Assembly (NCBI RefSeq): GCF_004010195.1 | Contig: NC_057757.1 | Span: 9,061,657 to 9,125,656 of the forward strand | DNA: 64,000 bases | Source: Chiloscyllium plagiosum | Lineage: Eukaryota | Reading direction: 5' to 3' | In this document: one piece after another, positions 3,800 to 61,220 of the stretch | How positions within the stretch are numbered: position 1 is the stretch's first letter | Layout of the letters: every line of letters starts with the position of its first letter | Notes under the pieces: model-generated | Seen by the model: only the letters and a program-made list of their open reading frames with translations | What the model was told of the DNA's origin: nothing | Databases searched by the model: none | Translations under genes and position numbers: made by a program

Positions 3800-4560
3800 A
3801 ACCCTGGGGGTACCATCTATCATCTAGCCCCTGTGTGTGCCCAGTATTATTCAGAATGATGGTACTCTTCTGTTGCGATATCTACCTTTGGCAGCCTGCA
3901 CTCATAAGAACAGGTTTCCCAAGTTATATCAAGGGGAGTGCAGTTAGGAACAAAGCTTGATGTTAGAGGAGCCGAACTCATGGATCACAGGCTCTGGCCA
4001 TGTGATGGTATGGCCTGTTCATTCACATTTACCTAGAAGTGGTCCCTATTGACCTACGCTATCTTTCCACAGCATATGGGAGGGTGTCACGGTAACCCAT
4101 TCAAATGTCTTTTTGATATAATTCTGATATTTCCAACTTCAAAGGTCCTCATCCCAACTTTTTCCCTCAGGATGATTGGAATTTCTAGCACCAAGCCCAG
4201 TGTCTCACCGAGGTTGTCCTTGCAGCTGGCATTAACCCAGACCTTGGTGAGCTGCTCTCACTGACAGTGAGAGATGTTGCTGTGGGTCTTTTCCTGGAAC
4301 AAATGGTCACGCTGTTTGTCACGAATCCAGGGCGGGTCTTTCCCGTGGCTCGTCTGCCTGAACACCACCCTCAGCGGTTTAATCATCCCGTTACCATAGA
4401 TACTGCACTGGGTATGGCTTTGCTGTTCACCGTCATCCTTGATTGGGCCCTGGCTGATCTAGTTAATTGTCTTGGTGTGACCTTTCAGTATAGCCACTAA
4501 GTGATGGCCAGCCTGATTCACCACTAGTTGTCCCATCGTCTGTGTTCAGTCCTGCTGGGG
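3800..4560 (-). mobile_element. Degenerate viral env / fusion-glycoprotein-like sequence, C-terminal part
   Basis: One frame of about 155 codons with three internal stops (QCSIYGNGMIKPLR...PPWIRD...SHCQ*...CKDNLGETLGLVLEIPII...FEVGNIRII), followed by a frameshifted Cys-containing region. Confidence 0.55.
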
Positions 4561-4569
4561 CACGTTTCA

Positions 4570-7330
4570 CATTTTAAAAAAATATTCAGGATTTTTGGTA
4601 AATTTCTGCGGTGCACCTTTTAGATAGTACACATCGCAGTTAATGAGCGCTGTCGGTGGAGGGATTGAATGTTTGTGTATGTCAATCAAGCTTGTGCCAA
4701 TCAAGCGGGTTGCTTTATCCTGGATGGTGTCAAGCTTCTTGAGTGTTGTTGGAGCTGCCCCCATCCAGGCAAGTGGGGAGTACTCCATCACACCCCTGAC
4801 TTGTACCTTGTAGATGGTGGAGAGACTTTGGGCTGACAGCAGGTGGGTTACTCACTACAGTATCCTAGGCATCTGATTTGTTCTTGTAGCCACTGTGTTT
4901 CTGTAATGATTTCAGTTGAGTTTCTCGTAAATGGTAACCCGAAGGATGTTAGTAGTTGGGGATTCAGTAATGATAATACTGTTGAATACCAAGGGGCGGT
5001 GGTTAGAGTGTTTCTTATTGGTGATGGCATTTGTGTGGCATGAATATTATTTACCACTTGTCTGCCCAAGCCTGGATATCGTCCAGATCTTGTTGCATTT
5101 GAGCACGGATTGCTTCAGTATCTGAGGAGTTCTGAACGGTGCTGAAAACGATGCAATCATCCCGCAAACTTCTGACCTTATGGTGAAGCAGCGGAAGATT
5201 GTTGGGCCTAGGACACAAACCTGAGGGACTCCTGCAGAGGTGTCCTGGAGCTGAGATGACTGACCCTCCACAACCACAATCATCTTCCTTTGTGCCAGGT
5301 ATGACTCGAACCAGCAGAATGTGTACCCCCTGATACCCATTGATTCCAGTTTTTTGAGGATCCCTTGACGCCATGCTTGGTCAAATGTGGCCTTGATGAC
5401 AAGGGCTATCGCTCTCACCTCACCTCTGGAATTCAGCTCTTTTGTCCATGTTTGAATCAAGGCTGTAATGAGGTCAGGAGCTGGGTGACACTGGCTAAAC
5501 TCAGACTGGGGGTCACTGAACAGGTCCGTGTTGAGCGGGTGCTGCTGGATAGTACTGTTGATGACCCCTTTCCATCACTTTCCTGATGGCCGAGAGTAGA
5601 CTGATTGGGCAGTAATTGGCCAGGTCCGGCTTTTTATGTACAGGAAATACCTGGGCAATTTTCCACACTGTCAGGAAGATGCCACTGGACTGGAAGAGCT
5701 TGGCTAAGGGAGCACCAAGTTCTGGAGCACACATTTCAGTACTATTGCTGGAATGTCATCAGGTCTCATTGCCTTTGCAGTATCCAGTGACTCCAGCTGT
5801 TCGATATTATGTGGAGTGAATCAAATTGGCTGGAGACTGGTATCTCTGATGCTGAGGACCACTGGAGGAGCCTGGGATGGATCATCCACTCAGCACTTCT
5901 TAGTGAAGATTTTTTGTGAATGCATCAGCTTTATCCTTTGCACTGATGTGCTGAGCTCCCCCCCTCATTAAGGATAGAGATATTTGTGAAACCTCCTCCT
6001 CCAGTGAGTTATTTCATTGTCCACCACCATTCACGACTGGTTGTGGAAGGACTGAAAAGTTTAGATCTGTTGGTTGTGTGATCACTTAGTTCTGTCTATC
6101 ACTTGCTGCTTATACCATTTGGCATGCGAGTAGTCCTGTTTGGTGGCTTCAACAGCCTGACGCCTCATTTATAGGTATTCCTGACGTTGCTCCTGGCATG
6201 CCCTCCTGCACTGGGTGAAAGTGAGGACTGCAGATGCTGGAGAATAGAGTCAAGATTAGAGTGGTGCTATAAAAAGCACAGCAGTTCGGGCAGCATCTGA
6301 GGAGCAGGAAAATTGACGTTTCGGGCAAAATCCCTTCATCAGGAATGAGGCCAGATTGAGTGTCCTCCTGCACTCTCCATTGAACCTGGGTTGATCCCCT
6401 GGCTTGATGGTTGAGTGGGGGGTATGCCAGGCCATGAGGTTAACGACTGTGTTGGAGTACAGTCCTACTGCTGTTGATGTCCCACAGTGCCTCATGGATG
6501 CCCAGTCTTGAACTGTCAGATTGGTTCGAAGTCTGTCCCATTTAGCACAGTGATAGTGCCCCACAACACGATGGAGATTATTCTCAATGTGAAGGTGGGA
6601 CTTCGTCTCCACAAGGTCAGTGCGGTGGTCACTTCTACCGATACTGTCATGGACAGAGGCTTCTGCAGCTGGCAGATTCGTCAGGATGAGGTCAAGTATG
6701 TTTTATCCTCTTGTTGGTTCCTTCACCACTTTCCACAGTCTGCGTCTAACAGTTATATTCTTTAGGACCCAACCAGCTCGATCAGTAATTCTGCAGCCAA
6801 GCCACTCTTGGTGATGGACATTGAAATCCCCCACCCAGCGTACATTTTGCTACTCTCAGTGCTTCCTCCAAGTATTGTTCAACATGGAGGAGTACTAACT
6901 CATCAGTCGAAAGAGGACGGTAAGTGGAAGCCAGTAAGAGGTTTCCTTGCCCATGTTTAAACTGAAGCCATGAGACTTCAGTGGGCCCGGAGTCAACGTC
7001 AAGGACTCACAGGGCAACTCCTTCCTGACTGTATCCCACTGTGGCGCCAGCTCTGCTGGGTCTGTCCTGCCGGTGAGACAGGACACATCCAGGGCTGGTA
7101 ATGGTGGTGTATGGAGTGTCATCTGTAAATTATAATTCCGTAAGAGTGACTATGTCAGGCTTTTGCTTGTCTCGTCTGTTGGTAAGGAGGACTTTGCATG
7201 GTCAACAGGGCTGTTTGTGTTTTTGCCATTGTCTGTTCCAGTTCTAAGGTTGATGCCAGGTGATCCGTCCAGTTTCATTTCTTTGTTGCAACTTTCTAGC
7301 AATTGATGCAACTGGGTGGCTTCCTCGGCT
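4570..7330 (-). mobile_element. Degenerate CR1/L2-group LINE ORF2 (endonuclease plus RT)
   Basis: Fragments NYCPISLLS, WTKELNSRGEVRAIALVIKATFDQAW, GVPQVCVLGP and MEYSPLAWMGAAPTTLKKLDTIQDKA with many frameshifts. A Penelope terminal fragment is inserted at about 6215-6350. Confidence 0.8.
6310..6348 (-). ncRNA. Minimal type I hammerhead ribozyme motif (Penelope terminal repeat), core intact
   Basis: The minus strand reads cattc-CUGAUGA-a-ggga uuuu gccc-GAAAC-GUC; stem I pairing is poor. Confidence 0.55.
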
Positions 7331-7935
7331 ACTTCAGACAGTAGTTGAGAGTCAACCACAGCACTCTGGCCCTGGAGTCATATGTATGCCAGACCAGGTA
7401 AGGATGGCAGATTAGTGAAGCAGGTGGGCTTTTCCTACAATTGACTATGGGCAATTGTGGTGGCACAATGGGTCAATGGTTAGCACTGCTACCTCACAGC
7501 GCCAGGAACCCGTGTTCAATTCCAGCTTCGGTTGACTGTCTGTGTGGAGTTTGCATGTTCTCCCCGTGTCTGTGCAGCTTTACTCTGGGTGCTCTGGTTT
7601 CCTCCCACAGTCCAAAAGTGGTGGAGGTTAGGGTGATTTGGCCATATTAAATTGCCCCATAGTGTTCAGGGATGAGTAGGTTAGGTACATTAGTCAGGGG
7701 GAATGAGTCTGGGTGGGATACTCTTCAGTGGGTCGGTTTGGGCTGAAGGGCCTGTTTCCATACTGTAGGGGTTTTATGAATTGCTTCATGGTCATCAGTC
7801 AACTCTTAATTCCAGATATTTTGATTTTTTATTGAATTGAAATTTCACAATGGTGGAGGATTCGAACCCAGATCCCCAGAGCATCATTCTGGATTAAACT
7901 GTCGATAAATAGTACCACTGGCCACTGCTTCCCCA
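7330..7935 (-). mobile_element. tRNA-headed SINE with Deu-like central domain, interrupted by a V-SINE
   Basis: B-box-like gggttcgaatcc, then tctggaattaagag...gatgaccatgaa and ctgccatccttacctggtctggc...tgactccag...gtggttgactctc, matching the Deu domain as I recall it. Confidence 0.65.
7458..7780 (+). mobile_element. HE1/V-SINE copy (diverged)
   Basis: tggttagcactgct...tgtgtggagtttgca...gaagggcctgtttcca, shared with the other copies. Confidence 0.85.
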
Positions 7936-8280
7936 CTAAATGTCGCGCTCTGATCCTGCGTTTATTGTCCAAAATAGCAAGGTCAAGGATATTGGCTGGT
8001 GACACTCATGTCCTGTACGCTGTGGCGAGATCATTAAGGAGTTCCCTTCTCTCTCTTCTGTTAACTGTTGTTCCGGCTTCTCCCTCACATACCCCTGTCC
8101 CTCATCCCATTATCCTGCAGGTCAGGTGGGAATATTATCGTTTTAATGGGGAAGGACGCCACTCTGGTAACTGTAACCCTGATGCATCTATTTTGATTGG
8201 AATTAGTTTTGGTGAATGTTATCGAACAACCTTTTCCCGGCTTCATGACAACTCCATTGGGAGGCCCTTCACTCCTGGTC
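7935..8280 (-). mobile_element. Degenerate viral env / fusion-glycoprotein-like sequence, N-terminal part with furin site
   Basis: One frame from 8206: LIPIKIDASGLQLPEWRPSPLKR*YSHLTCRIMG*GTGVCEGEAGTTVNRRERR-ELLNDLATAYRT*VSPANILDLAILDNK; RRERR at 8059-8045. Confidence 0.6.
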
Positions 8281-9952
8281 TCGGCCCAATTTTAGTTTTG
8301 CTCTTGAGGGATTCTCACTGATGGGGCTTCCCAGGGCATCGCTGTCTGAACTCCGACCCCTGGTCTGGGCTATAAGCTCATTATCTCACGACCATGCACC
8401 CATTCTATGGGAAACGCCACCAATCATCTGTGATTCCCCCCCGCGTTCCTGCAACACAATGTGAAAATCCCATGGGTTTCCTGTCCACTACCAGCTGAAG
8501 GTTGCACCTGAATCCCACCGATTCCGCAGGCTTGACCCAGAGGGCCCCACCTACACGCACCGCTGTGCCTGATGGATCATTCGACAAGAAGGTTGAGTAC
8601 ATGCTTTTCCCTTGTGTCTGTGAGGATTTACAATTTTGAATCTAGCTTGTCAAAAGCAACAAATATATGTAGGTTTTCATTAACCACAAAATGGCTTTTC
8701 AATTTAAAATAACACGACAAAATAGCTTCAAGTTATCATTTGACACTGTGAACCTGCATTACTGCTTTGCTGCGTTAGGTGAATTAGAAGATAAAACAGA
8801 CAATGGAGTCTTCCTAAAATGAATCACAAGCGATTAATTGACCACTCGAAGTAACCTTGAGATGATGATCTACATAAGAAACATTTCCCAGGAAATATCT
8901 TTGGATTAACCTGCTGTTAATCATGTCACCTTATTACATTTGATTGGCCTTTTCTTGTAATTAAGGCTTAGCTGTCTCTTAAACAAAACGTACAAATAAT
9001 GTTTATTTTTCAAATGCGATTGCGCAACTTCGCCACAGAACACAGAAGCTTTAACCTCTGTGTTGCTGGACAAAACTGTGCCAGGCTGCCTTATTTTATT
9101 AAACCGGTAACCTTGCTTTATACAGATTGCATTCCATTGATTATTTTGACAGATCACGAAACTGAGAGGTGCTGCCTGAGATCTATATCTTCACCTGTGC
9201 TCCATCTTTACATTCAGTCATTATAAAGCTGATTCACAATATACAGTAAAAACTCCCGAAGGCCACATCGCTGCCTTGGATTAGTCACTGTGGTTACTTC
9301 CTAAAAAGAGAACAAGACTAATTTCTGTAAATATCTTGGCCTAATATCCGACGCAGTATTCTACATGACTTCAGATAAATGTCAAATTATTTGATTGTCA
9401 CCCATTCCTGGTCCCCCTACAAGAGAATAAATGTGTCCCGCGTGCAGGATGTGATGAGGAGGTCAAATACTGTCTACACCGTGTCTCTAGAATCATGCTT
9501 TTGAAATCTTCTTACGGATTAGTCGTCAGATATTCTTTCAAGTGTCTGCAGGATTATTTCTTACATTCACAGATTTGACTACAATAAGCTTAGAAATTTT
9601 ATTCATTCATGTCTGGCTCTCTTCCACAAATATATTGAGTCATTAAAGTCCCACTCCTCAGTTTACATCCCTCACTGTCCCGAAACAGATTGACCTGATC
9701 TGTGCAGGGACAAAGGGGAAGGCCTCTTCTTGTCCCTCTGTTAACCTCTCCTATAAACAGTGTCCTCACTGTGTCGGAGGTCAGTATATCATTTGAATTG
9801 AGCACAAATGGAGACGCATAATACAGTGAGGATTCTTCAGTGTGAACACGAATGAATCTGTAAAAATGTGGGAAAATGAGAGGGGATGCATTTTAGCGGG
9901 AAAGTAGAGTTGTGGTTAAACTCAGATCGGACACGAACTCACTGAAAGGCAG

Positions 9953-10268
9953 AGTAGATTACTTACAGTGTGGAAACAGGCCCTTCGGCCCAACAAGTCC
10001 ACACCGACCCGCCGAAGCGAAACCTACCCAGACCCATTCCCCTACATTTACCCCTTCACCTAACACTACGGGCAATTTAGCATGGCCAATTCACCTAACC
10101 TGCACATTTTTTGGACTGTGGGAGGAAACCAGAGCACCCGGAGGAAACCCACGCAGACACGGGGAGAATGTGCAAACTCCACACAGTCAGTCGCCTGAGG
10201 CGGGAATTGAACCCAGGTCTCTGGCGCTGTGAAGCAACAGTGCTAACCACTGTGCCACCGTGCCACCC
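9953..10268 (-). mobile_element. HE1/V-SINE, full length
   Basis: tRNA-like head ggcacggtggcacagtggttagcactg, conserved body and ccacactgtaagtaatct tail on the minus strand. Confidence 0.92.
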
Positions 10269-10587
10269 GTAAGCTTGTTCCTTGTGTGTATTTTTGGATA
10301 AATCGGCCTCTGTTCCCATTCATTACCTAATAACAGCTCGACATTCAACCGGAATGACTCACAGTTCCTTCAGGAAACTTCAAACCAATCAAATCTCATC
10401 GGTCCAACGTGACCATTACATAGTTGGAACTTTACTGGTGAATAACGTCCACTAAAAGATGGAAAGTAAGTTAAACACGGGCTACAGTTTGCTTTTGGAA
10501 ATAAACAGGAGGGGCATGGAAAATAAACACTTGTGAACGATTGTTGTTAGTAAACGTGTAAGTTGGTAGTCTATCATTTCTTGTTTG

Positions 10588-10958
10588 TTCAAAGTTTGGG
10601 AGAAGATTTTTAGCTCGGGTGCTCGTTGTTGTGGTTCTGTTCGCCGAGCTGGGAATTTTTTTTTTGTTGCAAACGTTTCGTCCCCTGTTAGGTGACATCC
10701 TCAGTGCTTGGGAGCCTCCTGTGAAGCGCTTCTGTGGTGTTTCCTCTGGCATTTATAGAGGCCTGTCCCTGCCGCTTCCGGTTGTCAGTTTCAGCTGTCC
10801 ACTGTAGTGGTTGGTATATTGGGTCCAGGTCAATGTGTTTGTTGATGGAGTTTGTGGATGAGTGCCATGCTTCTAGGAATTCCCTGGCTGTTCTTTGTTT
10901 GGCTTGCCCTATAATGGTAGTGTTGTCCCAGTCGGATTCATGTTGCTTGCCGTCTGCA
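10588..10958 (-). mobile_element. Penelope-like element 3' end (GIY-YIG C-terminus plus terminal repeat)
   Basis: Translates KQHESDWDNTTIIGQAKQRTAREFLEAWHSSTNSINKHIDLDPIYQPL; same family as the insert at 53086-53544. Confidence 0.85.
10669..10707 (-). ncRNA. Minimal hammerhead ribozyme motif, core intact
   Basis: gca-CUGAGGA-u-gucaccu aac aggggac-GAAAC-GUU-ugc; stem I is gca/ugc and stem III is the palindrome ACGU. Confidence 0.7.
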
Positions 10959-14250: not shown

Positions 14251-15988
14251 GGTAATCAGAAGTCTGGTGAGAAACTGTTCAAGCACTGCCTAGATTTGAT
14301 GGGAAGATGTGGGAGCCTTTTCCATTTCACTTGAAAAGCTGGCTGACCAAATGCAGTGGTCAGAGACTATGTGGGTTTTGCTGATCCAAACCAAACTTGT
14401 AGGTGGAGCTCGTGAGGTATTCGCATCAGTAGCAGAGGATGTGTCTGGGGAGTAGGAGGAAGTGAAAAAAGCCATCTGAAGTGCATATGGGCTTGTACCA
14501 GATGCCGAATACAACGTTTCAGGAATCTAAGGAAGGATCCTGGTCAAACTTCGCAAGGGTCAAGCAAAGTAATTTTGAAAGGTGGATAAGAGCTTTAAAA
14601 ATAGAGCAAACTTACAATGCTCTTAGAGAGACGTTTATTTTGAAGGAGTTCAAAAATTCATTGCTTGACATAGTGCGAACTCATGTGGAACAGCAGAGAG
14701 CTAAAACAGCAATGTTAGCAGCGGAAGTGGCTCATGATTATGAGTTGGTCCATGAAAACCCATTTTGGGCTTCCAGGCTGAACTTCATTCCATGAGAGAT
14801 AGAAATTGGACAAAGAGAAATCCTCAAGTGAAAAGGGAAAGGGAGACCTCGGTGAAGATCATGAGGATAACGCATGACAGGGTAAAAAGGAAACCTTTGA
14901 AGGGGGCAGAGAAGGTAAAAGGTTCTGTTGTTCTCATTGCAATAACGCAGACCACCTGAAATCATAGTGTTGGTGGGCGAGGAAAAAACCAGACGTTGGA
15001 AAACAGGACAAGTCTGGGAGTTTTGTTGAAATGGTGACAGAATGCACAGTGGAAACTGGAAAGCTGCATCAGAGGTTGGAGAAGGAGCAAGTGCTGGATT
15101 CGCTAAGAAAACATAACTACCAAGGTAAATTTTGTTCACATAGGCCAGGAGACGCAGGTAGAGAAGTTACAATATTAAGGGACACATGATCCTCTCAGTC
15201 TGTGATGCTGAAGGAGGAGGAGATATGTACTCCTGAAGGACTATTGCCAGAAAAGGTACTGGCATCAGGAATTCACAGTGAGACGAAACGCGCTCAATAA
15301 TGTAAACTAAAGTTAGACTGTCCAGAAAAGAATGGAGAATTTGTAGAAGGAGTACAGGACAAACTCTCAGCTCCAAGAATAATATGAGTCCTTGCAAAAG
15401 TCATAGCTGATGCACTGGTAGGAATGCTGACTACTGTGATTAAAAAGCTAGTGGAGACGCAGGCAGCTGAAGCAATGCAGGATTCTTATCTGGGAATTTT
15501 CCCTGATTGTGTCATAACGAGGTCACAGAGTAACTAGTTGAAACAGGAGAGATCCAAGTGTATCGATAAGGAAGCTGAAGTGGCATTAGTAGAGACCGCC
15601 TTCGATCAGATAGTTGAGTCAAAACAGGAGCAAATACGTGGGTTATGCAAATATTTTAGCTCAGCTCAACTAATTCAGTTACAGCAGAAATATGAAAATT
15701 TAAATCAGTTGTATCAAAAGGCATATACAGAAAAACAGTCCGAATATATCCCTGAGTGTTATTACCTGAAAAAATATGTTTTCATGAGGACATGGAGACC
15801 ATCACATGTTCAGGCAAATGAGAAATGGGCAGAAGTCCGTCAAATCGTTTTTCCAGTGGGGCAAACAACGGAAATGTTGCGATTGGCGCATGAGCTACCA
15901 CTTGGAGGTCATTTCGGAATGAGAAAAACACAGGCTTAAATACAAATCCATTTTTACTGGCCTGGACAAGGATGTGTTCGAATTTTCC

Positions 15989-16115
15989 CAGATTTGGAGA
16001 TGCTGGTGTTGGACTGGGGTGTACAAAATTAAAAATCACACGACACCAGGTTATAGTCCAATAGGTTTAATTGGAAGCACTAGTGTTCAGAGTGCCGCTC
16101 CTTCATCAGGTGGTA
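15989..16115 (-). mobile_element. Third Penelope-type terminal fragment with degenerate hammerhead, inserted in the Gypsy integrase
   Basis: ccac-CUGAUGA-aggagcggcacucu-GAACACUA-gug; related copies at 41220-41300 (plus) and 32675-32810 (inverted pair). Confidence 0.6.
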
Positions 16116-18329
16116 GTGGAGTACACCTGCACATTTAATACCTATTCCAGCATGTGAGGAGCCTTTTACAAGAGTCTTAATTGATTGCATACATCCCCTA
16201 CCTCAAACAAAAGGTGGGAATCAGTATTTGTTATCAATAATGGATGTATCAAGGAGATTTCCAGAGGCGGTTCCATTGTACAATTTCATTGCTGAAAGGG
16301 TTTTCGGGAATTAATCTAATCTTTTTTACTAGATATAGACTAACAATAGGGATACAGTCAGATCAAGATTCAAATTTCGCATCAAAATTATTCAAGAAAG
16401 TTATGGACTGATTAGGCATAAAACAATTCAAATTTACTGCGTACTATCCAGAATCGCTAGAGAGATGGCATCAAACACTAAAGACCAAATTGGGGGCATA
16501 TCGTCAGGATTATCCAGGTGATTGAGATAAGGGAATTCTGTTTGTGCTTTTTGGGATCAGAGATGCACGAAATGAATCGACTGAATTCATTCCATTTGAA
16601 TTAGTCTTTGGGAATGAAGTGAGAGGACTGTTAAAATTGATTAAGAAGAAGGTAGTAAGTCAGAATTCAGAGAACACACATTTGGACTACGTGTCAAATT
16701 TTAGAGAACAGTTCAATAAGAGCTGGGGAGTTGGTTAGACAGCATTTAAAAATCACAGCATGCAATGAAACAAGAAGCAGACAAGAAATCAAAAATCTGC
16801 AATTCTGCGATCGGTGATAAAATATTAGTGTTATTTCCAGTAACGTGTGAACTTTAAAAGGAATGTTTAGTAGAACTTATCAACTCAAAATTAAATTGTG
16901 TGAAGTGAACTTCTTGATAGGGACTCTCGACAGGAAGAAATCTCACAGAATGTTTCATGTGAATATGCTCAAAAGGCATTTTGACAAGGAAGGAAAGCAA
17001 GAGGAACAGGTATTAATAATTACCACACAGAGGGAAGTACCAAGTTCAGACATTCCACAAATTAAATTGGACAATGAGGAAGTTGTAGAAATTGGGAAAA
17101 ATAATTGAGTTACCTTCCTGAGAAAAATCGAAATGACATGAAAGACTTACGACTGTCAAATGGTGAACTATGCAGTAATAAACCGGGAAATACTCACTTA
17201 ATTTTGCATGATGTAGATAGAGGAGATGCTGTTGCGATAAAGCAACGTCCATATAGGCATTACCCTCGAAAGTGTCACAGGTTCAGAAGCAGATTGAACG
17301 TATGCTCGAAGTGAGTTACAGTGACTGGAGTTATGTGTGGATGCAGTTACAAAGACTGACCCGCATATCCAATTCCGGGGTTGGAAGTCTGTGTTGAAAA
17401 GGTTGGACAAGCAACTAAGTTGGACTTGCTCAGAGGCTACTGGAGGTGCCTTTGTCAGAAAGAGCAAACGCAATTTCAGTTTCTGAGGCCTCTGTGAGAT
17501 TGAAGAATGTCACGTACAGAGGTTGCTGCTGTTCCCTGCACCCTGCTTGGATCTGTCACATACTGACAATCCTCCCCATTCTGCCTCCTTATGGGCAGAA
17601 GCTGCACAGAGCCTCGGGGAGGAGCTCTTCAGCCTCTGGGAGGAGGACACAGTGGAGCATTCTCGCCATGACCTTTCCTGGCGGACAGTGGGGGAAATCT
17701 CTCGGTCAGTCGGATCTGTCTCCTTTCTTGAATGAGGTCTCTGCTATCTCCCAGCATGCTCCCTTCATTCCAGACAAGCATGATGAGGTCGTGGATTCCT
17801 TCCCAGAATGTATCTCCACTATATTTTACGAGGGGTTCACCAGAGACTCCATTTGTGATGGAGACCCTGCTGTTGTTCAGCTGTGGTAAGTGTTTTCGCC
17901 CTCATGGTGGGTTGGAGGCTTGCTGAGATGGTGATGCTTAGTGTGCTGTCGGATGGTGTCTGGAACGTGAGTCACTGACTTTCCCGCTGACTCTCTCCAT
18001 CCACCAGCCATTCTTTAGGTCACGAGTTCTTTGTTCAAATCATTTGCGTGTCCACTTCTACCCTTTAGTTCAAGTCATGGTGCAGCTGCCAGTTCAGCAA
18101 CGCCTCACAGTTACGGTCTGGGAGATTCTGGATCTCCTGCTTGTTCCCACTGAGCCAGATTTGAGAATTCCTGGTTGAGAGGCCAAGGGTATCCACACAG
18201 CTGGTGACTGTGGAGGGGTTTAGGGTGGACCAGATGTTGTGGGCACTCTGTGGCTCAGCATCTTGGTCATCATCAGGTCGGCTGTGAGGCACTACCTGAG
18301 AAACACTTCCTTCAGCGGGTTAGTGATGG

Positions 18330-19309: not shown

Positions 19310-20460
19310 CCCAGGGCCACTCAGCCTTGGTTCAAACATGGACAGAAAGAGCTGAATTCCAGAGGCAGGGTCAGTCTGACTGGGTTTAACATCAAGGCTG
19401 CATTCGGCCAAGTGTGTTATCAAGGAGCCTGACCAAGGAGTGAATGGAAATCAGGGGAAACTCTCTGCTGGTTGAAGTCACCCCTGGCAGAAAGGAAGAA
19501 CATTGTGGTTGTGAAAGGTCCATCGTCACAGCTAAAGGACATCTCTGCAGGAGTTTCTCAGGGAGTACCTTAGGCCTAACCAGATTCAGCAGTTTCATCA
19601 ATGATTCCCTCCATCACAGGGTCAGACATGTGGATGTTAGCTAATAAATAGACAGTGTCCAGAAACATTTCTGAATACTCAGACACTGAAGTCAACCATA
19701 TCCAAGTGCAGTGAGACTTGGACATCATCCAGGCTTGGGCTGAAAAGTGCAATTAGCATTCACGCCACATAAATGTCAGACAATGATCATCTCTGTCAAT
19801 AGAGAATCAAACCATTGTCCTTTTGATATTCACTGGGATTTCTGTTACTGAATCCTCAACTATCACCATCTTGTGCTAACCATTGACTGGAAACTGCAAA
19901 CACCTTGACGATAGAGCAAGTCAAGCTGGAATTCTTCAGCCAATAACTCACATTCAGACATTTTAAAGCCTGTCCACCGTCTGCAAGGCACATGTCAGGA
20001 CTGTGGTGGAATACTCCCCATTGGGTTCGATGAGTGAAACTCCAATAACATTCAAAAAAGGTTGACATTATCCTGGATAAAACAGCCCATTTGATTTCCA
20101 CCACATCAATTTTAGTTTCACCAGTAGCAGCAATATGTACCAAATACTAGATATATCGCAGAAATTGACCCAGATTTCTCAAACAGAACCTTCCAAACCA
20201 ACAATCATCTAGAAGGACAAGAGCAGCAGATACGTGGGATCACCAAACACTGCAAGTTCCCTTCCAAGACAATCACCATCCTAATTTACCAATATATGAT
20301 CATTCCTTAAGTATCTCTACTTCAAGGTCCAGAACAACAGGATTGTAATTCTATGTGCAGCACATGGACAACAACAGCTCAAGAATGCAGCTCACCAACA
20401 CATTCTCAACGGCCACTAGGGATGGCCCAGCCAATGACATCCATGGATGGATTAGAATGC
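19310..20460 (+). mobile_element. Degenerate CR1/L2-group LINE 3' part (same family as 4570-7330)
   Basis: KELNSRGRV...FNIKAAFGQV, gacatcatccaggcttgggctga, and 3' UTR cagctcaccaacacattctcaacggccactagggatgg. Confidence 0.75.
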
Positions 20461-30121: not shown

Positions 30122-31416
30122 TTTTTTTAATTTCAAAATATACTTTATTCATAGAAATAGATCTTTGGTACTTGTACAATTTGTCATTTCGTTCATAGAT
30201 ATATATATATTGCATGTCTTAACATTACAAAGAACAGATTGAAATTAATCGAATTTACAGTTATCCTATTTACAGTTCCCTTTATTAACCATCCAGTCTC
30301 TTAGTATTTAGCTGTGGCTTCAGCGGAACCCACCTACTGAGTGGGTGCCCTGTTATACGATAGAAAATGAACCTTCTTTAACCCCCAGTTTATGGGGTTA
30401 CCATTGTCCATTTGACTGTCCTGTCTCTGGGGTAGCTGTTTACATCCCCATGGTGAGCACGAACTGTTGGACCCTCGCTGGGCTGAGGTAGCTATCCAGC
30501 TCCTCACTGGGATCATTTACCTGCTCTGGTGTCATTGAGCCAAGGAAAGGGTCTGCACCATCCAGTTCTGTGTCTGACAATGGGACTGTCAGAGGATCGC
30601 AGCTCTCAGTTACCTGTAGTTGTGGGGCAGTGGGTACCCCTGGTTCTCACTGGGTGGAGGGTGGACTTTGGGGGGTCCGTTGTTTCCGGGTTGGGAGGAA
30701 ATGCCCTCCTCTTTACCTATGGTGCTCTGTCTCTTCTTCTGATGGTGATGACCTTCTTTGCGCCCTCTCCCTCGTGCAGCTGTCTTTTCCCCCTTTGCTG
30801 GGAGGCTTTGGGGGCCTGGCCGGATTTTCTCTTCCTGTTTTTAGCAGGTATCCACTCCTCTGCCTGCTCGATTACCTCCTCCTCCAATGCTTCCTTCTGC
30901 CCAGCTAGAGCTAGGATCAGCTGCTGTGTCTCCTCCACTCCAGCCTGTTCTTCTTTCTGGGTGCCACCAGACTCCGTTTCCCTGCTGTCTAGGTGGACCT
31001 TACTGGTCTTAGGGGGTCCACGGTTCACATTGCCACCTCCAGCCATCTGTGCGTAAGTGTTCTTTCTGGGTGCCACCAGACTCTGTTTCCCTGCTGTCTA
31101 GGTGGACCTGACTGGTCTTAGGGGGTCCACGGCTCACATTGCCACCTCCAGCCATCTGTGCGTAAGTGGGGCCCCCCCGTCTTGGGCAGGTCTTGTACAT
31201 GTGGCCCGTCTCTCCGCACAGGTTGCAGCTCTTTGCTTCCTGACAGTCCTTAGTCAGGTGACCCTCCTGTTTGCAGTTCCTGCAGATGGTCACCTTGCAG
31301 TCCGCCGCCACGTGTCCCGACGTCCCGCAGGTTCGGCACACTTTCGGTTGCCCTGCATATGTCAGGTAGCCTCTGTTCCCTCCAGTTGCGAAGCTTGAGG
31401 GTGGGTGAAGAATGTT
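30122..31416 (-). mobile_element. L1/Tx1-type element retaining the ORF1 3' part (three CCHC knuckles), 3' UTR and poly(A), with no ORF2
   Basis: NILHPPSSFATGGNRGYLTYAGQPKV-CRTCGTSGHVAADC...CRNCKQEGHLTKDC...CNLCGETGHMYKTC; ORF end YLSPARVQQFVLTMGM*; AATAAA and an A-tail at about 30150-30122; ggaaaga on both flanks. Confidence 0.8.
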
Positions 31417-32534
31417 GGAAAGACATTTGCTTTGAGAATATCAGTGTATCTCTGTGGCTATAGTTGTGTCTTTCGACCACAATATTGTTTAGCCTATACT
31501 ATCACTTCTCTCTTTTAAGTGAATATCTTCTTGACTCATGCATAACAATTTGTCCCCTTTAACAGCATTCCTTTTAAACTATCATCTATTGTAATATTCC
31601 TACCAGTGGATCATATATCTCCTATTTCAATTTGCAAGTTTTTGACTTAATATGTCAAGAAACTTAATGTTTCTTTTATCATTGTTAATAGTCTGACTGC
31701 TGATGTAATTCCAAGCTTTGAGCGACCAATCTGAATGAATGATAGCCACTAGCTACAAGAGAACGTTGTGTATTTGTATCACCTGTACTGTAGTGAGACA
31801 ATGTTGTCACTTTGAGAGGTTATTTTGTACCTTTTTCAGGAAAAGTTGTTGTAAGGCAAAGGTCTGATCCATAATAGTAGTAAGACCGGCAAGTTACCAA
31901 TTACAATGCTGACCATCGTGATGAGAATAACAATGTGGTCAGTTGGCAATTGTGTTTTCAATTCGATTCTTAAATATAGAGAGAATGTGGGGGAAAAGGT
32001 GATCGTACACAGCTCCTAACTGTTGGTATACAGTCAGCTGAAGACACCCCAACCAGAAGTGTGTGTGTGTGGGGGAGGGAGTGGGGCATGTCAGAGAGGC
32101 ACAAGGGGATACTCGCAGAGGACCATTCTCATGGCAACTAGGGCGAGGCAGTAAATTCTGGCCCAGTCGGTGATAATGCCAATAGTCCATAAATGATTCA
32201 GAAAAGTATGGTATAAGGTATGTTTCTCAGATGCATGTGATCATTTTGTAAAATAACTGTAACACTGGAGAGCTTTGACAGAGTTATCTATTGATCATAT
32301 TATATGCAGAAATTTAACCCAAAAAGGGCCTTGTTACAACATTGTCGGGTCTCGAAAAATGTGCCATGAAGTTTGCGTTTGAGTCCCTTCTGTGCCTGAT
32401 GTGTATCGTAACGTGCATGAACTGGTGGCACAAGATTAGTTGCACGTTCTGTTCCTGCCGTGCAGTGAAGTTCATGAAGTACATTTAACGCACAAAGATC
32501 CCTGGTTTGTCATGTTGCTAATCTGTAAGCAATA

Positions 32535-37020: not shown

Positions 37021-37623
37021 CCTATCTGAACAAAATCGCATAACCTGTGTGTTAATGTATTTAACTGAATCTTACAGCTGGGAATCAGGAAAACTGCTGA
37101 AAATTGCTCCTGATTATTCACCAACATTCCGAATGCAAATTCAGAAAGCCATAATGTCACCCACCTTTTTAATAAAATTTTGTTCAATAGACTGATAAAT
37201 GTCAACATTAATATCACTATTTAAGGAATGTGAGTGAATATGCCATAATCGATTTTACATGCTGCTAATTACATTTTAGTTTCTAATTTAATGTTCTTTT
37301 AAAAATGTTATTTTCTTCCCTAAATCCTGAAATGCCTTTATTTTCTTATCAATAATCTTCAAACATAATGTGAATAATATTATATTATTTTACATTTTGG
37401 TATCTATGTGTGTGTCTGATTGATTGTTCTAAACAGAAAGAAAATACTGTTGATAGAACAAGGAATTGGTTTCAGTATCAATTACCAGATCTGAAAAGTT
37501 CAAACAAAATTCTGAAAATAAATCTTCATTAGAGGAATCAAGTCTTATCATTCTGCTCACTCTTTTTCTCTCACTGTTTCATTTCTTTCACCCGCTGGTT
37601 TACGTCTCTTTTTCATATTGCAG

Positions 37624-38534
37624 CTAACTTGGCAGTTGTTGTAATCCTATCCAGAGGAAGGTGCGGTCTCACCAGATGCATCATGTGCTACCTATTCTTC
37701 ATGGCGGTGACAGACATGTTGGTCATTATTACAGCTGTAATGTTGAACCGTATTGTTGGAATGTACTTTCCATTCAGCATCCTGCATATCACCTCCGTCT
37801 GTACTGTTAGTTTCGTTCTACTGGCTGCAAGCAGGGATTGTTCTGTCTGGGCAACTGTCGTATTCACTATTGATCGTTTTGTAGCCATTTCTTGCCCGAA
37901 ATTGAAGCCAAGATATTGCACAGAGAAAGTAGCAGCTGTGGTTATAGGGGCAGTTTGTGGGATGAGCTGCATCAAAAACACATTCTGGTATTTCATACAT
38001 GAACCATTATATACAATCGGTAATGTAACATGGTATTGCAAAATTAAGTCTATATTTTATACCTCACCTGCATGGGTTGCATTTCATTGGATTGATCGCA
38101 TTTCAATGCCTTGTCTACCATTTGTTTTGATCTTACTGCTCAACGCTGTGACTGTCAGACAAATTATAAAGGCCATTCAAACTCGCTCAAGACTCCATGT
38201 CCGCAAACAAGTGGAAAATCAGAATGACACGGAGATGCGGAACCGGAAAAAATCCATCATCCTCCTCTTCTGTATCTCGGGCAGTTTCATCCTGTTATGG
38301 CTACCGTATGTGTTAACATTTCTCTATGTCCGAATTGCAAAAGTGAATTATTTCTCGGGTTCCACTTACAATGAGTCCAATTTTAATCTGGAAGAAAGCG
38401 GGTATATGCTTCAGATCTTAAGTTCCTGTATAAACCCATTTATTTACGCAGGGACCCAGAGTAAGTTCAGAAATGAGTTAAGGGCAGGCATTAAAGTTTC
38501 CATCAGTTTTGTTGTAAGGATCTTAAAATTTTGA
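37624..38534 (+). CDS. GPCR gene B, exon 2
   Basis: Polypyrimidine tract and acceptor ttgcag|CT AAC TTG; open to TGA at 38534. Motifs MAVTD, FTIDRF, CLPFVLILLLN, SFILLWLP, NPFIY. The intron to exon 1 is 29984-37623 (7640 nt). Confidence 0.92.
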
Positions 38535-40194: not shown

Positions 40195-41662
40195 AGTGGA
40201 ACAATGCTCTTCTCACTATGAACTACCAATATTACCACATTTTTCTGACAATACTCCTCCTGAATTACATTTCTCTGGTCAAATTACATGCTCCTGCCTA
40301 CTTCTGAAAAACTGAATTTCTTTATCTACTCCTACTGCCGTGCGTGAGTAAACCTCACTTAAGCAAGTAAATTCTTAAAAGCATTCTTGCACTTTTTCCT
40401 CTCACAACTCCTGACTGGGCTGTACATCCTTTTGCAGCTTTTTAGCTTCCACTGTGCTGTCCTTTACCACTTCAACAAAATTTACTGGTTTATCCTGTTC
40501 ACCCACGTCCGTCTCCCAAGTGCTTTTTCTAAGCCACCAAAGCTGTGACGTCAAGTGGCCTCCTGAAGACATCTGAGCATTTATATTCCTGTTTCCCCTT
40601 CATGGGTTTCCTTTTTACCCTATGGCAAATAATCCTTACTATTTAAAACGAGGTCTCCTTTTCCCTTATCACCTGAGGATGTCACTTTTCTCCAATTTCT
40701 ATCCCTCACAGCTTGACAATGACGTCAGAAACCAAAGGTTGTTTTATGAACCGACTCATAATAATATACCATTCTTGCTGGTAATCTTGCAGTCTTACCT
40801 CTCTGTTCTTCAACATGAGCCATCAATACTTCAGAAAATGAAGTTTGAACTGTTCCAAAATAAGTGTTTCTCTAAGAGGGACAAATGTTTGATCTAGTTT
40901 CAATGCCTGCATCCACCTATAATGAATTTGTTTGATTCTTTCAAACTCCATTTACATTTAACTTAATTCCCTTCTTCGATCCTGAGACATTGTCTGTTGA
41001 CTTCTGGTCCAAGCTCACATACACTTAAGATGGCATGTTCCACCTCACTATAGCTCCCAGGGTAACTCCTCTGATAGTGAAGCAATTACCACAGGAGCTT
41101 TTCAGCCAGAGATTGTCCTTCAGACCAGAGCAGTTCTGATTGATCAATATATCATTGCATATGAATGACTCTATAATCTTTCGCTATTAATTCTGTGTCT
41201 TATGATCCTACTCGAAAATTACCTGATGAAGGAGCAATGCTCCAAAAGCTAGTGCTTTCAAATAAACCTGCTGGATATAACCTGGTGTGGTGTGTTTTTA
41301 AGTGATGCCGATGCTGCCAGAATTCTGGGATTTGCCAACAATTTCTGTTTTTTTTAATTTCATTCCCATTCAGCCCCATTAACACAGCAGCTTTATCTCC
41401 CAACTTTGTTTGAATCAACAATACCGAAATGGTCACTCACCCTGTCTGTACCCGTACATACACTTGGGGACAGACGGTTTCTTGTACTCGACGTCACATT
41501 TTTGGAAGAAACTCTGGCTTCCCCGTTTGTTATTTCAGCTCCAATTATTTCAATAAATCTCTGAATACAGTGACCCATTTGAAAATCTCACTGGGTCCTC
41601 AATCCAACTGGTCCCTTTGCCTCCAGGCTGATGGATAATGTGTTTATTTTCCTTCCTCCCAG

Positions 41663-42542
41663 CTAACGTACTGATGACCTGCATCCTTCTTTATAAAGAT
41701 TGTGAATTGTCTCCATGTGTCAGACGTTACCTGGGGGCAATGGCAGCGCTGGATCTACAGGTCATGATCCTTGACCTGATATGGAGACACATTCTCATTG
41801 TTTGCCAGGAACAGTTCTATTTCCTGGAGTTCATCCCCGTGTGTAATATCCACGCTGTCCAGCTTTATGCAGCCACTCACTGCTCTGTCCGGTTCACTGT
41901 CACGTTCACCTTTGATCGATTTGTTGCCAGAAGCTGTAAATGTAGCAGTGAGAAAACAGCAGCTGTGATTCTGGGATTAGTGACCGTTCTGAGCTGTTTA
42001 AAGAACATTTTCTGGTATTTTATGCTCACTGCTCATTACTTGCACATGAACAACTCTGGTTTCGTGATGTAAAAGACAACATTGTTTACTCTCTCCTCTG
42101 GGTCACAGTCGAGTTCCTCCACCACATTCTAACCCCGTTTCTCCCATTTCTCCTAATTCTGCTACACAATACTTTCACCGTCAGGAATATTTTAGGGACC
42201 AGCAGAGCTCGCAGGACTCCAGACTCACACCAATGGGGACGCTCAGTCTGACACAGAAATGAGAAACCGAAAAATATCCATCATTTTAACGTTTGTGATC
42301 TTGGCCAATTTTATTCTGTTATGGTCAATGTTAACGGTGTATACTGTATGGTACAGGATGGATGATTTGCGATATGACACACTGAATCTAGATTGGAACC
42401 AGGCTTCATGCTGCAGCTCCTCAGTCGCTGCACAAACACCGTGGTTTATGCCGTGACCCAGACTAATTTCAGACAGCAGCTAAAGAATGTGCTGAAATAT
42501 CCCTTCACCCAAAAACCTCAATCAATCAAATTCACTCATTAA
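41663..42542 (+). pseudogene. GPR139-like GPCR exon-2 pseudogene (gene C)
   Basis: Acceptor ccttcctcccag|CT AAC. Homologous blocks (RYLGAMAALDL, FTFDRF, LTPFLPFLLILL, EMRNRKISIIL, GFMLQLLSRCTNTVVY) lie in different frames, with frameshifts near 42055, 42215 and 42390 and a short deletion after DRFVA. Confidence 0.88.
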
Positions 42543-52454: not shown

Positions 52455-53085
52455 CTGGGGTGTAGACCATCAGGCCCTGGGGACTTATCAACCTTCAGAC
52501 CTAACAGTCTCTCCAACACCAATTCCTGGCAAGTATAAATTCCCTTTAGTTCAGGTCCTTCAGCCACTGTTACCTCAAGAAGATTGCTTGTGTCTTCCCC
52601 AGTGAATGCATATCTGAAGTACCAATTCAATTCTTCTGCCATTTCTTTGTTCCCCGTAATATATTCCCCTGTTTCTGTCTTCAAGGGCCCAATTTTAGTC
52701 TTAACCACTTTTTTGCCTTTCACATAACTAAATAAGCTTTTACTATCCGCCTTTATATTTTTAGCCAGTTTACCTTCGTACCTCATTTTTTCTCTGCGTA
52801 TTTCCTTCTTAGTAATCCTCTGTTGTTCTTTAAAAGCTATCCAGTCCTCCGTCTTCCCACTTATCTTTGCTATGTTATACATTTTCTCTTTTAACTTTAT
52901 ATGTTTCTTAACTTCCCTTGTCAACCATGGCCACCCATGCCTCCTCCTGGGATCTTTCTTCCTTTTTTGGAATAAACTCCCAGTCTACCTGCATGTTGAA
53001 ATCCCCCATAACAACTGTCGTAACACCTTTGCGACAGGCCAAATTCAGCTGCTAATTCAACTTACATCCGACATCCAGACTACTG

Positions 53086-53544
53086 CTGTGGTTCTGTTCG
53101 CCGAGCTGGAAGTTTTTGTTGCAAACGTTTCGTCCCCTGGCTAGGCGACATCATCAGTGCTTGGGAGCCTCCTGTGAAGCGCTTCTTTGATGTTTCCTCC
53201 GGTGTTTATAGTGGTCTGTCCCTGCCGCTTCCGGTTGTCAGTTTCAGCTGTCCGCTGTAGTGGTTGGTATATTGGGTCCAGGTCGAGGTGTTTGTTAACA
53301 CATCGACCTGGACCCAATATACCACTCACTACAATGGACAGCTGAAACTGACAACCGGAAGCGGCAGTGCCAGACCACTATAAACACCGGAGGAAACATC
53401 AAAGAAGCGCTTCACAGGAGGCTCCCAAGCACTGATGATGTCGCCTAGCCAGGGGACGAAACGTTTGCAACAAAAACTTCCAGCTCGGCGAACAGAACCA
53501 CAGCAACGAGCACCCGAGCTACAAATCTTCGCACAAACTTTGAA
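53086..53544. mobile_element. Palindromic Penelope-like insertion with two hammerhead motifs and a 13-bp TSD
   Basis: Inverted arms centred near 53296; atccagactactg at 53073-53085 and 53545-53557. Confidence 0.9.
53429..53468 (+). ncRNA. Minimal hammerhead ribozyme motif, core intact (mirror copy at 53121-53160, minus)
   Basis: gca-CUGAUGA-u-gucgccu agcc aggggac-GAAAC-GUU-ugc. Confidence 0.75.
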
Positions 53545-60800: not shown

Positions 60801-61220
60801 ACAAGGCAAACCAAGCTCAGGGTCTTTATGAAAATCAAAGCCGGAGTGTGCAGGCTTCCTGGAGAGGGGGAGGGAATTTTAAATTGAAGGGGGAGGGTGA
60901 GGAGGCAGTAATATCACACACTGGGCTGAGGGTGGTAGTTGGAGTTTAGTTTGGATAATGCGAGGTATTGGATTTGGTAAATCAAACAAGAGCAGGACCT
61001 ACACAATTAAAAATAAAGAATTTGGCAGTGTTATAGAACAGAGACCTCGGCCGTCAGTATACTTCTTTAAAATTTGCATCCCATATAGATAGCGCAGTTA
61101 AGAAGGTATTTTGCACACTTGCCTTCATTGGTCAGACCTTTGAGAATCGGAATTGGGACGTCATGGTGTGGCTGTACAGGACATTGCTGAGACGTCTTCT
61201 GGAAAACTGTATCCAGCCTG
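57863..61220. repeat. Tandem segmental duplication, about 1.67-kb unit (57863-59524 and 59537-61220)
   Basis: Both copies start cataccctaag and end ctggaaaactgtatc(t/c)agcctg, with scattered substitutions, an indel of about 20 nt and the 12-nt spacer atgttctatgtt. Confidence 0.95.

What the first reader, a model, noticed from the sequence alone, without database searches (positions are those of the whole stretch)
3800..8280. Hidden viral fusion-glycoprotein fossil split by a 3.4-kb insertion
Seen: on the minus strand, missed by the ORF track because of stops, one frame gives ...TTVN-RRERR-ELLNDLATAYRT*VSPANILDLAILDNK. After the SINE/LINE insertion (about 4565-7935) a long frame continues QCSIYGNGMI...PPWI...LGLVLEIPII...VGNIRII and then a Cys-containing stretch. 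Established: class I fusion proteins have a basic cleavage site followed by a fusion peptide and heptad region. The short segment before the site, the long segment after it and the absence of a visible ISD/CX6CC motif fit a paramyxo/pneumovirus F-like layout better than a gamma-type env; lokiretroviruses are described with such env genes. Inference: a loki-like or env-bearing LTR element in a shark.
Basis: partly seen in the sequence, partly recalled or inferred. Interest (0 to 1): 0.7.

Follow-up and report, generated by a model that had tools for sequence, protein, structure and literature searches.

The report
Dead shark retroviral fusion-protein gene
This is a broken piece of a virus envelope gene in a shark genome, cut in two by a jumping gene; its intact relatives in other sharks are predicted to be paramyxovirus-F-type membrane-fusion proteins, likely of an endogenous retrovirus family that I could not find described for sharks.

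Summary
Every quoted motif is on the minus strand. Single shark proteins match both sides of the insertion in order (P0006 residues 7-44 = 8056-7943 and 63-117 = 4533-4369), so this is one gene split by a 3.35-kb LINE that holds two nested repeats. The copy is dead (9 stops in 276 codons, at least 3 frameshifts), its C-terminal third is not recognisable, and no linked pol or LTR was found. Relatives come from five shark genera and include intact 700-residue envelopes. These have a furin site, long helices, a Cys-rich region, a transmembrane helix and no CX6CC. F-type is supported by ESM features (0.91-0.94) and weak Foldseek ranks on a poor model, but not by Pfam. 'Lokiretrovirus' is unproven: there is no RT here, and the defining paper found 0 lokiretroviruses in 6 cartilaginous-fish genomes, two of them from species that hold this env family. 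This scan has already noted F-like shark envelopes on other DNA. This locus adds only a decayed member of a second, divergent subfamily.

The parts
7943..8279 (-). 5' piece of the env fossil: F2-like segment, furin-type site RERR (8056-8045), predicted fusion peptide and start of the first heptad helix; two frameshifts between about 8246 and 8209, 3 stops in 8209-7943
   Evidence: tblastn P0006 7-44 = 8056-7943, 55%, E 1e-6; P0009 261-348 = 8209-7961, E 1.7e-4, and profile A2 hit; anchored extension to 8279, 0 of 60 shuffles; stops counted
8280..8580 (-). Tentative remnant of the N-terminal head module and Pro/Thr stalk of the same env; not significant on its own
   Evidence: Colinear but weak alignments: P0008 59-115 = 8578-8423, 8 of 60 shuffles as good; extension to 8482 only with a lenient frameshift cost; GC steps from 0.58 to 0.33 at 8600; no Ig or integrase hit
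4580..7934 (-). Inserted decayed non-LTR retrotransposon (endonuclease + RT) with a SINE-like 5' head; it stops short of the 3' end that two other window copies have; lies about 36 codons after the cleavage site
   Evidence: Pfam PF14529 and PF00078; 66-71% identity to other window copies; 3' ends compared; no target-site duplication found; the head is judged SINE-like by eye, ARAGORN and Rfam found nothing there
7448..7780 (+). SINE-type repeat nested in the LINE, opposite strand
   Evidence: Eight other long matches in the window at 71-83% identity (family D1)
6211..6371 (.). Second short high-copy repeat nested in the LINE (its end motif recalls Penelope-type elements; label recalled, not tested)
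   Evidence: Ten matches elsewhere in the window at 77-85% (D2/D11)
3986..4579 (-). 3' piece of the env fossil: rest of the heptad helix, F1-like core and first Cys-rich strands; 4 stops in 4572-4117, a frameshift near 4091, 2 stops in 4090-3986
   Evidence: phmmer 7 hits; tblastn P0001 42% over 125 aa, E 1e-28; profile A2 98.5 bits; anchored extension, 0 of 40 shuffles
3800..3985 (-). Possible further env remnant (a KGRY word at the expected spacing, seen by eye); no second heptad or transmembrane segment is recognisable beyond it
   Evidence: Not significant: 28-29 of 60 shuffles as good; searches also negative

Best explanation
This is a dead fragment of an envelope gene, split by a later LINE insertion, whose intact shark relatives are predicted to be paramyxovirus-F-type (class I) fusion proteins, likely carried by an endogenous retrovirus family. 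The original protein would have been a type I membrane glycoprotein of about 700 residues. Host furin would cut it at R-E-R-R, the freed N-terminus would insert into the target membrane, and two heptad helices would zip into a six-helix bundle to fuse the membranes (inferred from established class I fusion chemistry; untested here). History: germline insertion (inferred); a LINE landed about 36 codons past the cleavage site (shown); two short repeats lie inside that LINE (shown; that they came later is inferred); stops and frameshifts built up (shown); gag, pol, LTRs and the C-terminal third were lost or eroded (inferred from failure to detect them). It has no protein function today. The reverse-transcriptase class of the carrier is open; I lean to a canonical-type retrovirus over a lokiretrovirus.
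For: One gene in two pieces. Family: 4 of 7 phmmer hits carry names, all sharks; 25 of 27 profile hits carry names, all sharks. Intact open frames of 699-722 residues exist, one cluster of 7 members with two on contigs of about 9 kb. Anatomy of P0008: RSKR at 249, hydrophobic peak at 652-662, no CX6CC; predicted helices 274-337 and 596-632 flank a strand-rich region. F-type: ESM features of P0008 170-690 lie nearest to Gypsy env/Baculo_F (0.94, 0.93) and Fusion_gly clusters (0.92, 0.91), and 10 of the ten best hits with a family share a family or clan. Foldseek ranks 1-8 among 350,542 PDB chains are metapneumovirus F; rank 1 in BFVD is a shark paramyxovirus F0, E 2.9e-4. The window's subfamily aligns with the intact one over 404 columns (hhalign probability 100, E 1e-48). 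Retroviral carrier: gene model P0009 has, just before env, a stretch whose best PDB match is the C-terminal domain of 'Integrase p46' (2m9u; MLV by recall), E 0.084.
Against: No Pfam fusion-protein hit for any window piece or for 25 relatives, and no PDB sequence-profile hit to F. Both AlphaFold models are poor (mean pLDDT 39.5 and 38.3). Foldseek PDB E-values are 0.009 or worse, with TM-scores near 0.1. In BFVD an RdRp and a chuvirus glycoprotein score as well as F (ranks 2-3). The second model gave RSV F only at E 0.63 and generic helical bundles in VIA-align. The predicted fusion peptide is not strongly hydrophobic: no 19-residue Kyte-Doolittle peak above 1.3 there. The tool notes that shuffled proteins reach 0.9 in 4-10 of 100 ESM searches and that this was not measured for parts. 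No pol or LTR is linked at this locus, and the integrase hint is one weak match in a gene model of the other subfamily.
Confidence: 0.8

Rival explanations
1. The carrier is a true lokiretrovirus (lokiortervirus) that the published RT screen missed in sharks, so this is an ordinary loki env fossil in a new host class.
For: Loki Env is the only F-like vertebrate LTR-element Env in the papers I read: signal peptide, RXKR site, fusion peptide, coiled coil, TM, similarity to PF00523 (PMC7947760). The layout of P0008 fits. One ESM neighbour is an unnamed 820-member, mostly chordate cluster that could be teleost loki Env; not tested.
Against: 0 of 6 chondrichthyan genomes were positive in the RT-based screen, two of them species that hold this env family. 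Loki Env hit PF00523 at 2.2e-7 by the paper's method, whereas these proteins give no hit by hmmscan (different methods). Loki integrase is CGIN1-like, while P0009's stretch best matches another integrase C-terminal domain, weakly.
Confidence: 0.3
2. The carrier is a Ty3/gypsy (errantivirus-like) or BEL element with an F-type env, not a retrovirus proper.
For: The top ESM cluster is Gypsy env/Baculo_F (0.94). F-type env is widespread in invertebrate Ty3/gypsy elements (10.1101/2023.10.26.564294). The GPY/F-type integrase tail also occurs in Metaviridae (PMC12440569). A gypsy-type remnant lies at about 14.4-17.3 kb (SCAN and Integrase_H2C2 hits).
Against: That preprint reports no intact vertebrate elements homologous to the invertebrate ones. 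The gypsy remnant is on the other strand and about 6 kb away. ESM scores 0.91-0.94 do not separate the F-type families.
Confidence: 0.12
3. It is a non-retroviral fossil: an F-gene mRNA of a paramyxo/pneumo-like RNA virus, reverse-transcribed and inserted by a LINE, which would explain env without pol or LTRs.
For: No pol or LTR at the locus. Paramyxovirus-like EVEs are reported in sharks (10.1101/2023.10.17.562709). The best BFVD match is a shark paramyxovirus F0.
Against: Its relatives are multi-copy genomic genes across five shark genera, with near-identical intact copies in one species, the pattern of an amplified element. No exogenous-virus F appeared among the sequence hits, and there is no PF00523 hit.
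Confidence: 0.06
4. The fossil survives because it was co-opted as promoter or regulatory DNA for the GPCR gene whose first coding exon starts about 0.7-0.9 kb downstream on the same strand.
For: Adjacency (exon 1 at 3084-3018, exon 2 at 1865-933, 7tm_1). A Mustelus gene model also joins an env of this family to a similar GPCR exon (P0007 576-607).
Against: The window holds at least three such GPCR genes or remnants, so adjacency is likely by chance. No DNA similarity upstream of the other copies. The decay looks neutral. No expression data.
Confidence: 0.05
5. It is a gamma-type retroviral env whose motifs have decayed.
For: A CXXC motif is present in the head region of 3 of 3 relatives checked there (P0008, P0009, P0013). 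Gamma-type Env is common in fish genomes, Chiloscyllium included (10.1101/2021.11.23.469661).
Against: No CX6CC in 8 of 8 relatives. About 400 residues lie between the furin site and the TM helix, far more than a gamma-type TM ectodomain (established knowledge). No Pfam hit to a retroviral coat family.
Confidence: 0.02

Closest known systems
Lokiretrovirus (lokiortervirus) Env, Wang and Han, PMC7947760 and PMC9040795
   Same: Envelope of a vertebrate genome element with a basic furin site, fusion peptide, coiled coil and TM, F-like and not gamma-type
   Different: Not reported in cartilaginous fish (0 of 6 genomes). The shark relatives carry an extra Cys-rich head of about 150 residues before the F2-like part. 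Linked RT unknown. No direct sequence comparison with loki Env was possible.
Paramyxovirus/pneumovirus fusion glycoprotein F0 (PF00523), with baculovirus F (PF12259) and errantivirus Env (PF07253)
   Same: Predicted layout: cleavage site, long helix, strand-rich Cys region, second helix, TM; nearest ESM clusters and top weak Foldseek ranks
   Different: About 12% identity in structural alignments, no HMM hit, a less hydrophobic predicted fusion peptide, and an added head module
Unnamed shark env gene models: Mustelus XP_078074422 (P0008), Heterodontus XP_067888393 (P0004), Scyliorhinus GCB82951 (P0006), Chiloscyllium GCC43652 (P0003)
   Same: Direct sequence relatives: 35-54% identity to the near subfamily and 22-33% to the intact subfamily
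   Different: All are annotated only as hypothetical or uncharacterized. The window copy groups with P0001, P0002, P0004 and P0005 (100/100, long branches), a subfamily for which I found no full-length member.

Membership tests
F-type class I fusogen (F0/Baculo_F/Gypsy env) | Basic furin site R-X-K/R-R followed by the fusion subunit | tested here: met
   RERR at 8056-8045; site present in 5 of 8 relatives checked, the other three being fragments that start after it
F-type class I fusogen (F0/Baculo_F/Gypsy env) | Long heptad helix after the site, second helix before a C-terminal TM segment, long F1 ectodomain | tested here: met
   In intact P0008: predicted helices 274-337 and 596-632 (low confidence), TM peak 652-662. 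In the window only the first half survives.
F-type class I fusogen (F0/Baculo_F/Gypsy env) | Profile or fold match to F | tested here: inconclusive
   ESM 0.91-0.94 and weak Foldseek top ranks in favour; no Pfam or PDB HMM hit; poor models
F-type class I fusogen (F0/Baculo_F/Gypsy env) | Strongly hydrophobic N-terminal fusion peptide | tested here: inconclusive
   The segment aligns between window and relatives but gives no KD19 peak above 1.3 in P0008
Lokiretrovirus | RT in the loki clade, sister to canonical retroviruses | not testable with these tools
   No retroviral RT at the locus; no host genome held; contig scans found nothing. Published screen negative in 6 chondrichthyan genomes.
Lokiretrovirus | LTR-gag-pol-env-LTR layout with tether plus second RNase H | tested here: inconclusive
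   No LTR pair or pol seen next to the fossil, but loss by deletion would look the same
Lokiretrovirus | CGIN1-like integrase | tested here: inconclusive
   Only an 80-residue stretch of relative P0009 could be tested; best PDB match 2m9u 'Integrase p46', E 0.084
Lokiretrovirus | Env similar to Mononegavirales F | tested here: inconclusive
Gamma-type retroviral Env | CX6CC motif in a short TM ectodomain | tested here: not met
   Absent in 8 of 8 relatives, including full-length P0008
Ig-headed shark F-like Env (earlier notes of this scan) | Immunoglobulin-type domain before the F module | tested here: inconclusive
   No Ig hit for window 8647-8345 or for P0008 33-170; the head of these relatives is Cys-rich and unclassified

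The most novel reading that the evidence does not exclude
Sharks carry a lineage of canonical-type retroviruses, not lokiretroviruses, whose envelope is a paramyxovirus-F-type fusogen with its own head module. It is old enough to have split into two subfamilies about 25% identical, and this locus is a fossil of the older-looking one. That would put F-type Env inside Retroviridae proper and favour the published scenarios in which F-type Env was ancestral or was swapped between retroviral lineages.
Probability: 0.35. Interest if true: 0.72.

Novelty: new member of a known kind. Interest (0 to 1): 0.36.

Why it matters
The locus itself is a neutral ruin. Its value is as a marker: it shows a second, divergent subfamily of F-like envelopes in shark genomes, where the published lokiretrovirus screen found none. 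Wang and Han leave open four scenarios for where retroviral and loki Env came from (PMC7947760, passages). Classifying the RT that travels with the intact shark copies would test them directly. F-like Env on a canonical RT would break the rule that F-type Env marks only the loki lineage; a loki RT would extend that lineage to a new vertebrate class.

Tried and rejected
Pfam on six window translations and 25 relatives: no fusion family. Word-indexed search with the 174-residue piece among longer proteins: 0 of 105 candidates. Search for a full-length member of the window's own subfamily: 6 hits of 8000 scored candidates, none new except two Heterodontus fbxo15 models. Contig scans for DNA context found no relative (metagenomes; viral contigs), and no host genome is held, so pol and LTR linkage could not be read. 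I considered 8580-8350 as an integrase core (D...D spacing seen by eye) and as an Ig domain: neither got a hit (only designed Pizza repeats, spurious). An apparent signal peptide at 8680 lies in AT-rich DNA beyond the GC step and is probably chance. Extension beyond 3986 is not significant. The second fold and VIA-align gave nothing specific. No target-site duplication, no tRNA gene, and one Rfam match below threshold (U6atac, E 0.14), treated as chance. Literature: searches returned 0 papers; others returned listings in which I saw no F-type shark Env. Supplements of bioRxiv preprints are closed, and the DIGS paper's shark paramyxovirus-like EVEs (its Table 3) were not seen; they could overlap this family.
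Full report
Observation. The 5' piece carries RERR at 8056-8045 followed by ELLND...DNK to 7961. The 3' piece runs in one frame from 4572 to 4117. Between them lies a decayed non-LTR retrotransposon on the same strand, with endonuclease and RT hits, from about 7934 to 4580. It holds a SINE-type repeat at 7448-7780 and a second short repeat at 6211-6371. The window is repeat-rich DNA with at least three rhodopsin-family GPCR genes or remnants (7tm_1 tested for one). No whole genome is held.

One gene in two pieces. phmmer with the 3' piece (stops as X) returned 7 proteins at E<=0.001 among 1.84 billion. Four of the 7 carry names, all sharks: Chiloscyllium, Heterodontus, Scyliorhinus and Mustelus. 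P0006 matches 8056-7943 with residues 7-44 (55%) and 4533-4369 with residues 63-117 (44%). P0007 matches 8209-7961 and 4572-4117 in the same order. The 18 codons between the two P0006 matches need 54 nt, and about 53 nt of non-LINE sequence are there (junction placed by eye). So the LINE sits about 36 codons past the cleavage site with almost no env lost. No target-site duplication was found, and this LINE copy stops before the C-terminus that two other window copies show.

Extent and state. Anchored, frameshift-aware profile alignments extend homology to about 8279 upstream (0 of 60 shuffles) and 3986 downstream (0 of 40). Beyond these points nothing is significant. A colinear weak match and a GC step suggest the fossil reaches about 8580. 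There are 9 stops in the 276 codons counted and at least 3 frameshifts. No second heptad or TM segment is recognisable. No Pfam family was hit in three minus-strand frames of 8201-10302, and no LTR-like repeat pair flanks the fossil.

The family. A profile search returned 27 proteins of 7938 candidates; 25 carry names, all sharks, adding Pristiophorus. P0008 (714 residues) is intact, in a cluster of 7 with members of 699-722 residues, two on contigs of about 9 kb. It has an N-terminal hydrophobic leader (by eye), a Cys-rich head, a Pro/Thr stalk, RSKR at 249, a Cys-rich region and a TM peak at 652-662. CX6CC is absent in 8 of 8 proteins checked. A tree of 27 rows splits the family in two (100/100): the window copy with P0001, P0002, P0004 and P0005, and the P0008 group. 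Rows with a matching stretch under 75 residues, among them P0003 and P0006, were left out, and the tool warns that long branches meet. The two subfamilies align over 404 columns through to the TM. I found no full-length member of the window's own subfamily.

Is it F-type? For: ESM features of P0008 170-690 lie nearest to Gypsy env, Baculo_F and Fusion_gly clusters at 0.91-0.94. Foldseek ranks 1-8 in the PDB are metapneumovirus F (E 0.009-0.07), and rank 1 in BFVD is a shark paramyxovirus F0 (E 2.9e-4). Against: no Pfam or PDB HMM hit; both models have mean pLDDT under 40; an RdRp and a chuvirus glycoprotein score as well in BFVD; the second model adds nothing; and the predicted fusion peptide is weakly hydrophobic. 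Together with the layout I put F-type at about 0.8.

Which carrier? Not shown. The only pol hint is gene model P0009, whose N-terminal 80 residues best match an integrase C-terminal domain (2m9u, E 0.084) directly before env. Contig scans gave no DNA context. Wang and Han define lokiretroviruses by RT and describe an F-like Env (PMC7947760; parts 1-2 of 4 and passages read). Their supplement (searched for taxon names; file cut when stored) lists 1+3+1+1 chondrichthyan genomes with 0 positives, including C. punctatum and S. torazame, which hold this env family. So the carrier is either a missed loki lineage or something else. An unchecked note of this scan calls this genome a bamboo shark.

Comparison with print. 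Passages were read from PMC9040795, the errantivirus preprint, the DIGS preprint, PMC4422223, PMC12440569 and PMC11521997, and the abstract and passages of the anamniote Env preprint. None of what I saw describes an F-type Env in sharks. Searches returned nothing; 15, 68, 97 and 105 were seen as listings. Subscription journals, Repbase entries and preprint supplements are not covered, so absence from print is not established. This scan has noted F-like shark Env before: 9 notes from another genome or genomes, 8 shown, which describe young copies with an Ig-like head. I tested the Ig idea on the window and on P0008 and got no hit. Those notes are leads, not support.

Verdict. It is likely F-type and of retroviral origin, and is not shown to be a lokiretrovirus. 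The locus is ordinary decay. The family is the interesting part, and its decisive test, the linked RT, could not be run here. Interest 0.36.

Noticed in passing
window 3084-3018 and 1865-933 (-); P0007 residues 576-607: A rhodopsin-family GPCR gene (GPR139/142-like by recall) starts just downstream of the fossil. A Mustelus gene model fuses an env of this family to a similar GPCR exon, probably a mis-splice.
   Followed up: partly
P0034, P0035, P0044-P0046 (Heterodontus fbxo15 models): Several F-box only protein 15 isoform models end in the C-terminal part of this env family, including the TM (81% to P0004): either an exonised env giving a membrane-anchored F-box protein or an annotation artefact.
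   Followed up: no
window 7934-4580 (-): The inserted LINE keeps a SINE-like 5' head but lacks the 3' end seen in copies near 20100-20400 and 28540-28200, the reverse of usual LINE truncation, while env resumes almost in register.
   Followed up: partly
P0008 residue 81, P0009 residue 145, P0013 residue 98: The head module of the intact relatives has a conserved CXXC although no CX6CC partner exists; the head got no usable ESM hit.
   Followed up: partly
window about 14400-17300 (+): Decayed gypsy-type LTR element with SCAN-like gag and integrase zinc finger (Gmr1-like by recall); opposite strand, not linked to the env.
   Followed up: partly
window 37533-38534 (+) and 41632-42072 (-): Further GPCR genes or remnants similar to the one at 933-1865; the window is part of a cluster.
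   Followed up: no
window 53084-53505: Near-perfect 209-nt inverted repeat with a 4-nt gap (97%), with another copy of the arm at 10682-10843.
   Followed up: no
window 57863-61089: Tandem duplication of about 1.7 kb at 97-98% identity.
   Followed up: no
window 30717-31440 (-): CCHC zinc-knuckle ORF1-like remnants of a Tx1/L1-type element (label recalled), with an internal repeat.
   Followed up: no
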